A DNA stretch of 64,000 nucleotides from the human T2T-CHM13v2.0 reference genome, Homo sapiens: positions 29,184,001 to 29,248,000 of the forward strand of contig CP068257.2 of NCBI GenBank assembly GCA_009914755.4. Direction: 5' to 3'. How positions within the stretch are numbered: position 1 is the first letter of the stretch; the number at the start of each line of letters is the position of its first letter. Of the stretch, positions 38,928-39,374 are shown piece after piece. Position numbers and translations under genes: made by a program. The notes beneath the pieces were generated by a model that saw only the letters and a program-made list of their open reading frames with translations, was not told where the DNA came from and made no database searches.

Positions 38928-39212
38928 TCAGTAGCTGCTACATCCCCATCCAGTGCCAAATCCCCTTGACTTAGCACTGCTATCATTTCTATTTCCTCTG
39001 GTACCACAGTTTACCTAGCCAAGGTCCCAGCCACTGGAGCTAACGCTGCCAAACCCAAAACTATAGCCCAAGGAAGAAGAGTTGAAAGCCTGCAAAGTCA
39101 AAATGGCCAGGCCTATATGCATCCCCATAGAGAAAACCCAAGCTGAGAGCCAAAGAGAGAATGGTACCATAGAAGCAGTAATAGAAGTTCCCAGAAGATG
39201 GAGTTTGACTCA
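38928..39212 (-). pseudogene. KRTAP7-1-like processed-structure pseudogene (decayed tandem paralog). A frameshift and an internal stop interrupt the reading frame, and the TATA box is lost.
   Basis: The minus-strand sense runs from the ATG at 39212-39210 to a TGA at 38930-38928. It translates in shifting frames as 'MSQTPSSGNFYYCFYGT...' then '...SLGYSFGFGSVSSSGWDLG*VNCGTRGNRNDSSAKSRGFGTGWGCSSY*'. These align to KRTAP7-1 'MTRYFCC...YGT', '[17 protein letters not shown]' and the terminal 'GFGYSTY*'. Nucleotide matches include 'cttgggctatagttttgggtttgg' vs 'ctgggctacagctttggtggtag', and 'gatgtagcagctactga' vs 'ggctacagcacctactga'. The 5' leader is also homologous ('ccttgctcaat' vs 'ccttctcaat'; 'aagccct' is shared), whereas the TATTAAAA of the intact gene reads 'cttggtgaag' here. 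Confidence 0.55.
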
Positions 39213-39374
39213 TTGTGTCCAGATTTGTAAATGAGGTTTATTGAGCAAGGAAGTTGCCAGAGCTTGATGCCTCTTCTCACAGGCACTAGAGGATAGGGCT
39301 TCACCAAGAGCCGTTCTTTCTTAACATCCACATCTGTTTATTTGGAAGATTGTCCTGTTAAAAGACAGGCAAAT

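What the first reader, a model, noticed from the sequence alone, without database searches (positions are those of the whole stretch)
38928..39330. Decayed KRTAP7-1 paralog about 26 kb from the intact gene, in the same orientation
Reading the minus strand between 39212 and 38928 gives an ATG-initiated, frameshifted and stop-interrupted sequence. Its pieces ('...NFYYCFYGT...', 'SLGYSFGFGSVSSSGWDLG*', terminal '...GWGCSSY*') align in order with KRTAP7-1 (RYFCC...[26 protein letters not shown]). The matches hold at the nucleotide level too: 'cttgggctatagttttgggtttgg' vs 'ctgggctacagctttggtggtag', with an identical stop context. Homology continues into the 5' leader ('ccttgctcaat' vs 'ccttctcaat', shared 'aagccct'). 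The TATTAAAA box of the live gene reads 'cttggtgaag' in this copy. This is the signature of an old tandem gene duplication followed by pseudogenisation. The chr21 high-glycine/tyrosine KRTAP cluster is known to have expanded this way. A KRTAP7-type pseudogene, as opposed to the annotated KRTAP8 pseudogenes, may not be annotated.
Basis: partly seen in the sequence, partly recalled or inferred. Interest (0 to 1): 0.6.

Follow-up and report, generated by a model that had tools for sequence, protein, structure and literature searches.

The report
Ancient dead copy of KRTAP7-1
About 26 kb upstream of the human hair-protein gene KRTAP7-1 lies a badly decayed, non-functional old copy of that gene, which the published gene-family catalogues missed; it is an ordinary by-product of tandem gene duplication.

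Summary
Window 38928-39213 (-), with leader homology up to about 39310, is a decayed KRTAP7-type gene copy. It lies 25.6 kb upstream of intact KRTAP7-1 (13078-13341, -) in the same orientation. With nhmmer, the KRTAP7-1 locus matches 39283-38893 at E=1.2e-7 (24.6 bits). The best score in 100 shuffled windows was 5.9 bits. ATG aligns with ATG and TGA with TGA. The relic also hits KRTAP7-1 of bonobo, tenrec, a rodent and a pangolin. It matches KRTAP7-1 far better than KRTAP8-1 (26.6 against 6.9 bits). It is dead: the TATA box is gone, the ATG frame stops after 50 codons, there is a frameshift near 39077-39089 and an in-frame TAG at 39015-39017, and no protein profile recognises it. It is 63-66% identical to every KRTAP7-1 tested, whereas eutherian orthologues are 82-90% identical to each other, so the split looks older than the eutherian radiation. 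It is not KRTAP8-2P or KRTAP8-3P: Wu et al. 2008 place both KRTAP8 pseudogenes beyond KRTAP8-1, and list nothing between KRTAP7 and KRTAP11-1 in human, chimpanzee or mouse. I could not check current GENCODE or RefSeq annotation, and I could not reach orthologous DNA. This is a minor new member of a known kind, of low interest.

The parts
38928..39213 (-). Relic of the KRTAP7-type coding region (ATG 39213-39211; terminal TGA 38930-38928)
   Evidence: The nhmmer alignment to the KRTAP7-1 locus puts ATG on ATG and TGA on TGA at high posterior probability. The frameshift-tolerant protein alignment covers KRTAP7 residues 15/20-87 and includes an identical SSLGYSFG octapeptide. Identity to KRTAP7-1 CDS is 63-66% over about 250 aligned columns.
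39214..39310 (-). Relic of the 5' leader and core promoter; the TATA box position (about 39299-39308) has decayed to 'cttggtgaag', with a 14-nt insertion after 'aagccct'
   Evidence: nhmmer homology runs up to 39283, which corresponds to KRTAP7-1 position 13423, just 3' of its TATA box. Read directly, 'aagccct[atcctctagtgcct]gtgagaagag' matches KRTAP7-1 'aagccctgtacgggaagag'. The multi-species promoter alignment shows no TATA box under either possible register.
38893..38927 (-). Short stretch of homology just 3' of the stop codon
   Evidence: The nhmmer alignment extends 35 nt past the TGA. There is no detectable homology to the rest of the KRTAP7-1 3' UTR.
39061..39063 (-). Premature TAG that ends the ATG-initiated frame after 50 codons
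   Evidence: the ORF listing reports ORF 39061-39213(-), 50 aa.
39077..39089 (-). Zone in which the reading frame shifts between the N-terminal and C-terminal homologous parts
   Evidence: Tracebacks with four KRTAP7 orthologues all need one frameshift here, at 39077-39089. tblastn places the two HSPs in frames -2 and -3.
39015..39017 (-). In-frame TAG inside the C-terminal homologous frame
   Evidence: ORF 39015-39170(-) ends here. The alignment reads ...GWDLG*VNCG....
13078..13341 (-). Intact KRTAP7-1 coding sequence, the living paralogue
   Evidence: An 87-aa ORF. Pfam PF15034 E 8e-45. The protein is identical to a Homo sapiens KRTAP7-1 entry, KAI2595901.1.
13426..13433 (-). TATA box (TATTAAAA) of KRTAP7-1, 92 nt upstream of its ATG
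   Evidence: Read directly from the sequence. It is conserved as TATAAAA in bonobo, two bats and tenrec.

Best explanation
The sequence is an unprocessed, non-functional pseudogene. [quoted passage not shown] It kept the orientation of KRTAP7-1 and now lies 25.6 kb upstream of it. It has lost its TATA box and acquired a frameshift, two stop codons and several indels, so it cannot make a KRTAP7-like protein. Shown: the homology, its specificity for KRTAP7 over KRTAP8, the lesions, and its absence from the published KRTAP inventories. Inferred: the split from the KRTAP7-1 lineage predates the eutherian radiation. The reasoning is that the relic is equally distant (63-66%) from every KRTAP7-1 tested, while those genes are 82-90% identical to each other. 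A crude Jukes-Cantor distance of about 0.5 substitutions per site points to well over 100 million years.
For: nhmmer of the KRTAP7-1 locus against the window gives E 1.2e-7, 24.6 bits, spanning leader, CDS and stop. The empirical null maximum was 5.9 bits in 100 shuffled windows. In the reciprocal search the relic hits KRTAP7-1 of human (E 4.3e-8), bonobo (1.9e-8), tenrec (1.3e-4), a rodent (1.1e-5) and a pangolin (7.9e-5). Its match to KRTAP8-1 reaches only E 0.019 to 0.33. The frameshift-tolerant protein alignment ranks it first for 14 of 22 KRTAP7 queries, but for KRTAP8 queries it scores no better than background. Lesions and TATA loss. There is no other copy in the window, so it is not a repeat family. 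No poly(A) tract lies downstream. Pairwise identities. Both catalogued KRTAP8 pseudogenes map elsewhere, and nothing is catalogued between KRTAP7 and KRTAP11-1. The KRTAP8p2 position matches the bonobo relic at L006:27756-27947.
Against: At the protein-profile level nothing is detected. The KRTAP7 HMM scores -5.4 bits, Pfam finds no family at E<=10, and a 5.8-billion-protein search with the repaired translation finds nothing. The adjacent human KRTAP7-1 protein alone is only marginal, with 4 of 40 shuffled windows reaching its score. Bat KRTAP7-1 DNA gives no significant hit. No orthologous sequence from another species could be obtained, so the age and the history of decay are inferred from one sequence. 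Homology does not extend beyond the gene unit, so the size of the original duplicated segment is unknown.
Confidence: 0.82

Rival explanations
1. It is the relic of a separate, equally old type-II high-glycine/tyrosine KAP lineage, a sister to KRTAP7 plus KRTAP8, or a KRTAP8-type gene, and not a KRTAP7 duplicate.
For: Divergence from KRTAP7-1 (63-66%) is in the same range as KRTAP7 against KRTAP8 (65-76% over shorter stretches). Goat KRTAP8-2 gives a mildly raised score of 49, reached by 3 of 40 shuffled windows. KRTAP8-1 DNA gives a weak hit at the same place, E 0.019 to 0.33.
Against: Similarity to KRTAP7-1 is much stronger than to KRTAP8-1 in the same search (26.6 against 6.9 bits). KRTAP8 proteins as a group do not single the site out. 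The C-terminus ...GFGTGWGCSSY* resembles KRTAP7's ...[11 protein letters not shown] and not KRTAP8's ...RRYSPFALY*. The 5' leader also aligns with KRTAP7-1.
Confidence: 0.1
2. It is a processed retrocopy of a KRTAP7 mRNA that happened to insert nearby. KRTAP genes have no introns, so lack of introns cannot tell the two apart.
For: Detectable homology is limited to roughly the transcribed 5' leader, the CDS and 35 nt after the stop.
Against: No poly(A) tract lies downstream. The shared 'aagccct' and the preceding bases lie at and just after the TATA position, upstream of where transcription should start. The copy sits inside the parent cluster in the same orientation, which is what tandem duplication predicts and would be a coincidence for retroposition.
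Confidence: 0.04
3. It is a chance or compositional resemblance, that is, Gly/Tyr/Ser codon bias in ordinary intergenic DNA.
For: The weak single tests: tblastn E 0.06, crude Smith-Waterman 52 against 50 for an unrelated tile, and no protein-profile hit.
Against: nhmmer scores 24.6 bits against a shuffled maximum of 5.9. Hits to KRTAP7-1 genes of five species are independent of each other. Start, stop and order are colinear. KRTAP8 proteins, which are just as Gly/Tyr-rich, do not give the signal.
Confidence: 0.02
4. The locus still has a function, either as a 50-aa micropeptide from the ATG frame or as a transcribed or regulatory element.
For: An ATG-initiated 50-codon ORF survives. An ATTAAA lies 303 nt after the stop.
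Against: There is no TATA box. The ORF is absent from a collection of 15 billion proteins and has no homologues. The pattern of frameshift plus stop codons is that of neutral decay.
Confidence: 0.02

Closest known systems
KRTAP7-1 (keratin-associated protein 7-1; Pfam PF15034), window 13078-13341(-)
   Same: It shares colinear nucleotide homology from the 5' leader through ATG to TGA, the SSLGYSFG motif, a Gly-rich ...G-x-S-x-Y* C-terminus, the same cluster and the same strand.
   Different: Identity is only 63-66%. The TATA box is lost, there is a frameshift and two stop codons, and the N-terminal [15 protein letters not shown] motif and most cysteines are gone. PF15034 does not recognise it.
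KRTAP8-2P / KRTAP8-3P (KRTAP8p1 and KRTAP8p2 of Rogers 2002 and Wu 2008)
   Same: They are also dead single-exon high-glycine/tyrosine KAP copies on the minus strand of the same 21q22.11 cluster, left by tandem duplication.
   Different: They are KRTAP8-type and lie 5.9 and 10.7 kb beyond KRTAP8-1, outside this window. The bonobo counterpart at L006:27756-27947 matches KRTAP8-1 at E 5e-10, whereas the present relic matches KRTAP7-1.
Ruminant KRTAP8-2 (PMC4169784)
   Same: It is an example of a type-II HGT-KAP paralogue that is alive in some mammals and dead or absent in humans.
   Different: It lies on the far side of KRTAP8-1 (gene order KRTAP11-1, 7-1, 8-1, 8-2), so it is not syntenic with the relic. 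Its protein scores the relic only weakly.

Membership tests
KRTAP7 family (PF15034) | Significant match of the encoded protein to the KRTAP7 profile | tested here: not met
   Pfam found no family at E<=10 for the repaired translation or for either frame. My own 22-sequence KRTAP7 HMM scored -5.4 bits. This is expected for a heavily decayed copy, so I file it as a KRTAP7-derived pseudogene and not as a family member protein.
KRTAP7 family (PF15034) | Nucleotide homology to KRTAP7-1 across the gene unit, with start and stop in register | tested here: met
   nhmmer E 1.2e-7, shuffled maximum 5.9 bits against 24.6 observed. Reciprocal hits to KRTAP7-1 of five species.
KRTAP7 family (PF15034) | Closer to KRTAP7 than to the sister family KRTAP8 | tested here: met
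   26.6 against 6.9 bits in one search. Top hit for 14 of 22 KRTAP7 queries, while the mean score for KRTAP8 queries equals background.
KRTAP7 family (PF15034) | Intact single-exon ORF of about 87 codons with a TATA-box promoter | tested here: not met
   Stops at 39061-39063 and 39015-39017, a frameshift at 39077-39089, and no TATA box.
KRTAP7 family (PF15034) | Expression in the hair-shaft cortex | not testable with these tools
   No expression data are available here.
Unprocessed (duplicated) pseudogene | Located beside the parent gene within the cluster, in the same orientation | tested here: met
   25.6 kb upstream of KRTAP7-1, both on the minus strand.
Unprocessed (duplicated) pseudogene | Homology reaching promoter sequence; no poly(A) tail or target-site duplications | tested here: inconclusive
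   Homology reaches the TATA position but not clearly beyond it. No poly(A) tract within 1 kb downstream. The flanks show no further homology.
KRTAP8 family (PF11759) / annotated KRTAP8-2P, KRTAP8-3P | Best match to KRTAP8, and position matching the catalogued pseudogenes | tested here: not met
   The KRTAP8-1 match is weak, E 0.019 to 0.33. The catalogued KRTAP8 pseudogenes sit at hg18 31,096,432 and 31,101,178, below KRTAP8-1 (31,107,218). The relic maps to about 31,149,500, between KRTAP7 and KRTAP11-1.

The most novel reading that the evidence does not exclude
The relic marks a lost second KRTAP7-type gene (a would-be 'KRTAP7-2') that was functional in early mammals. KRTAP7 is otherwise reported as strictly single-copy across mammals. 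An intact or better-preserved orthologue might survive in some unsampled or poorly annotated lineage, at the syntenic position between KRTAP7-1 and KRTAP11-1.
Probability: 0.15. Interest if true: 0.3.

Novelty: new member of a known kind. Interest (0 to 1): 0.15.

Why it matters
It adds one uncatalogued pseudogene to the human 21q22.11 KRTAP cluster. It also shows that KRTAP7 once had a second copy, although it has been described as having at most one functional gene in every mammal surveyed (Khan et al. 2014, PMC4180150). That is a small correction to the birth-and-death history of the high-glycine/tyrosine KAP genes. It has no evident functional or medical consequence. It also illustrates that protein-based pseudogene pipelines miss relics this old, while DNA-level profile alignment still detects them.

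Tried and rejected
1. A protein search with the repaired translation against 5.8 billion proteins found nothing. None of the relic's three ORFs is in the 15-billion-protein collection.
2. Pfam and my own KRTAP7 HMM on the translations gave no signal.
3. An exhaustive KRTAP7 profile search of 1.84 billion representatives returned only KRTAP7-1, broken KRTAP7-1 gene calls and long repetitive proteins. There is no second KRTAP7-type family.
4. I tried to reach orthologous DNA through KRTAP7-1 anchors with 10 kb flanks in two bats, tenrec, Myotis, pika, a rodent and a pangolin. Synteny was traceable, but the best flanks reached only human coordinate about 33.2 kb, short of 39 kb. The Myotis scaffold is full of gaps.
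5. I tested whether a weak KRTAP7-upstream-like element at 41567-41629 is the relic's promoter displaced by insertions. Only the Alu at 39470-39801 is demonstrably repetitive, so this is unsupported.
6. A tile at 6814-7009 that nearly tied my first crude alignment is a chance match to a repeat-like sequence.
7. A faint KRTAP7 HMM hit at 16790-16942 is AT-rich non-coding sequence.
8. Literature searches for KRTAP7-2, KAP7.2 and similar names found no paper. Rogers et al. 2002 is not held.
9. I did not use the metagenome or prokaryote-genome scans, because they are very unlikely to hold this mammalian locus.

Full report
**Context.** The window is human. Its 87-aa ORF at 13078-13341(-) is identical to a Homo sapiens KRTAP7-1 protein entry and matches Pfam PF15034 at E 8e-45. 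[quoted passage not shown] Using the hg18 coordinates in Wu et al. 2008 (PMC2528016, Additional file 1), KRTAP8-1 falls about 3.3 kb before the window start and KRTAP11-1 about 0.7 kb after its end.

**The observation.**
- On the minus strand an ATG at 39213-39211 opens a frame reading MSQTPSSGNFYYCFYGT..., which stops at TAG 39063-39061 after 50 codons.
- A second frame carries ...SSLGYSFGFGSVSSSGWDLG*, with TAG at 39017-39015. It then runs on to ...GFGTGWGCSSY*, with TGA at 38930-38928.
- The leader strings 'ccttgctcaat' and 'aagccct' and the decayed TATA position 'cttggtgaag' are all there.

**Is it more than chance?** Simple tests were only suggestive.
- tblastn with KRTAP7-1 gave two colinear HSPs in different frames at a combined E of 0.06. 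This was the best non-self hit in the window.
- A crude nucleotide Smith-Waterman scored 52, against a shuffle mean of 28.6 and a best unrelated tile of 50. That tile turned out to be a chance match to repeat-like sequence.
- Protein profiles failed outright. The KRTAP7 HMM scored -5.4 bits and Pfam found nothing.

More suitable tests were decisive.
- nhmmer with the 763-nt human KRTAP7-1 locus aligned 39283-38893(-) at E 1.2e-7, 24.6 bits. ATG fell on ATG and TGA on TGA at high posterior probability, and the alignment continued into the 5' leader.
- In 100 block-wise dinucleotide-shuffled windows the best score averaged -0.8 bits (sd 2.2, maximum 5.9).
- Used as the query, the relic finds KRTAP7-1 in human (E 4.3e-8), bonobo (1.9e-8), tenrec (1.3e-4), a rodent (1.1e-5) and a pangolin (7.9e-5).
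- I also wrote a frameshift-tolerant protein-versus-DNA Smith-Waterman. It ranks the site first in the whole window for 14 of 22 KRTAP7 orthologues, with a mean of 51.5 against 44.6 for the best other site. Tenrec, whale and cow scored 72, 71 and 66. The null for the maximum per whole window was 44.6 +/- 4.7 (maximum 61), and 0 of 40 shuffles reached the observed scores.
- Its tracebacks cover KRTAP7 residues 15/20 to 87. They need one frameshift at 39077-39089, pass through the TAG at 39015-39017, and end exactly at the shared stop.

**Which family?** The signal is specific to KRTAP7.
- KRTAP8 proteins are just as rich in Gly and Tyr, but they score the site no better than background (42.1 against 42.6).
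- Bonobo locus L006 holds both genes. In it the relic matches KRTAP7-1 at 26.6 bits and KRTAP8-1 at 6.9 bits.
- The C-terminus and the 5' leader also resemble KRTAP7, not KRTAP8.

**Anatomy and state.**
- The KRTAP7-1 TATA box (TATTAAAA, 13433-13426) is conserved as TATAAAA in bonobo, two bats and tenrec. It has no counterpart in the relic under either plausible alignment.
- The better register reads 'aagccct[atcctctagtgcct]gtgagaagag' against KRTAP7-1 'aagccctgtacgggaagag'. That implies a 14-nt insertion.
- With the frameshift, two stop codons, several indels and loss of the conserved N-terminal motif, the copy is dead.
- It has no other copy in the window, so it is not a dispersed repeat.
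- Homology does not extend into the wider flanks. The only flank match is an unrelated L1 pair.
- No poly(A) tract follows it. Together with its position and orientation inside the parent cluster, this favours DNA-level tandem duplication over retroposition. Because KRTAP genes lack introns, this point stays partly inferential.

**Age.**
- The relic's coding part is 63-66% identical to human, bonobo and tenrec KRTAP7-1 alike. Those orthologues are 82-90% identical to each other. KRTAP7 against KRTAP8 is 65-76% over shorter alignable stretches.
- Equal distance to all eutherian orthologues places the split before the eutherian radiation. This is an inference from one sequence.
- I could not obtain orthologous DNA. 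KRTAP7-1 anchors with the maximum 10 kb flank in seven species gave traceable synteny, but reached at best human coordinate about 33.2 kb.

**Is it already known?**
- HGNC lists KRTAP8-2P and KRTAP8-3P in this band, and my main worry was that the relic is one of them. It is not.
- Wu et al. 2008 give hg18 positions: KRTAP8p1 at 31,096,432-554; KRTAP8p2 at 31,101,178-288; KRTAP8-1 at 31,107,218-409; KRTAP7 at 31,123,624-888; KRTAP11-1 at 31,175,223-714. All are on the minus strand.
- Both KRTAP8 pseudogenes therefore lie beyond KRTAP8-1, outside this window.
- KRTAP8p2, 5.9 kb from KRTAP8-1, corresponds to the KRTAP8-type relic I found independently in bonobo at L006:27756-27947 (E 5e-10).
- Nothing is listed between KRTAP7 and KRTAP11-1 in human, chimpanzee or mouse.
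- Khan et al. 2014 count one KRTAP7 gene and no KRTAP7 pseudogene in the great apes they surveyed, and state that subfamily 7 has at most one functional member.
- Sheep and goat maps show no gene in that interval either.
- No paper in the library mentions a KRTAP7-2.
- An exhaustive profile search of 1.84 billion proteins finds no second KRTAP7-type family.
- I could not check whether current GENCODE or RefSeq annotates the locus.

**Verdict.** The finding is real and correctly interpreted. It is an old, uncatalogued, thoroughly decayed KRTAP7-type pseudogene left by tandem duplication. It is a new member of a well-known kind, in a cluster already known to hold many pseudogenes, with no sign of function. 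Interest is low.

Noticed in passing
window 13078-13341 (-): The KRTAP7-1 allele in this window is intact (264 nt). Its protein differs at two residues (S51P, I61S) from the sequence shared by bonobo and the human reference protein NP_853637.2/Q8IUC3. Wu et al. 2008 list the hg18 copy as a 265-nt pseudogene, 'KRTAP7p1'. So the human gene appears to vary between intact and frameshifted forms across assemblies.
   Followed up: partly
L006:27756-27947 (bonobo, outside the window): A KRTAP8-type pseudogene lies 5.9 kb beyond KRTAP8-1 on the same strand. It matches the KRTAP8-1 locus at E 5e-10, and its translation reads ...LLGSYGYSLGHSDACGDGSTF... It corresponds in position to KRTAP8p2 of Wu et al. 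2008. Ruminant KRTAP8-2 lies on this same side of KRTAP8-1 in the sheep gene order.
   Followed up: yes
window 41567-41629 (-): A weak match (E 0.05 with a four-species DNA profile, 0.39 with human alone) to the conserved element 165-225 nt upstream of the KRTAP7-1 ATG ('gaaaagccaa..aaaat.tg.gca'). It lies 2.35 kb upstream of the relic's ATG on the same strand. It could be a displaced upstream element of the relic or pure chance. Only an Alu accounts for part of the intervening sequence.
   Followed up: partly
window 16729-16908; also 14036-14385, 31356-31837, 32178-32474: Non-coding blocks upstream of KRTAP7-1 are conserved between human and distant mammals: 75% with tenrec at E 6e-23 for 16.7-16.9 kb, and E 2e-34 with a bat for 31.4-31.8 kb. 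They may be regulatory elements of the cluster. The 16.8 kb block is AT-rich and has no reading frame.
   Followed up: partly
window 39470-39801 (+) and 39375-39400: An Alu element and a (CATA)n microsatellite sit immediately upstream of the relic's decayed promoter. An L1 fragment at 37534-38098 lies downstream and is similar to another L1 fragment at 11467-12031, near KRTAP7-1. These repeats are unrelated to the duplication.
   Followed up: yes
L001:18217-18411 (Artibeus) and L004:18849-19034 (Molossus): In bats KRTAP8-1 lies only about 8 kb downstream of KRTAP7-1, against about 16 kb in human and bonobo. The whole interval is about 0.43 times the human length, mostly because it lacks the primate Alu and L1 insertions.
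   Followed up: partly
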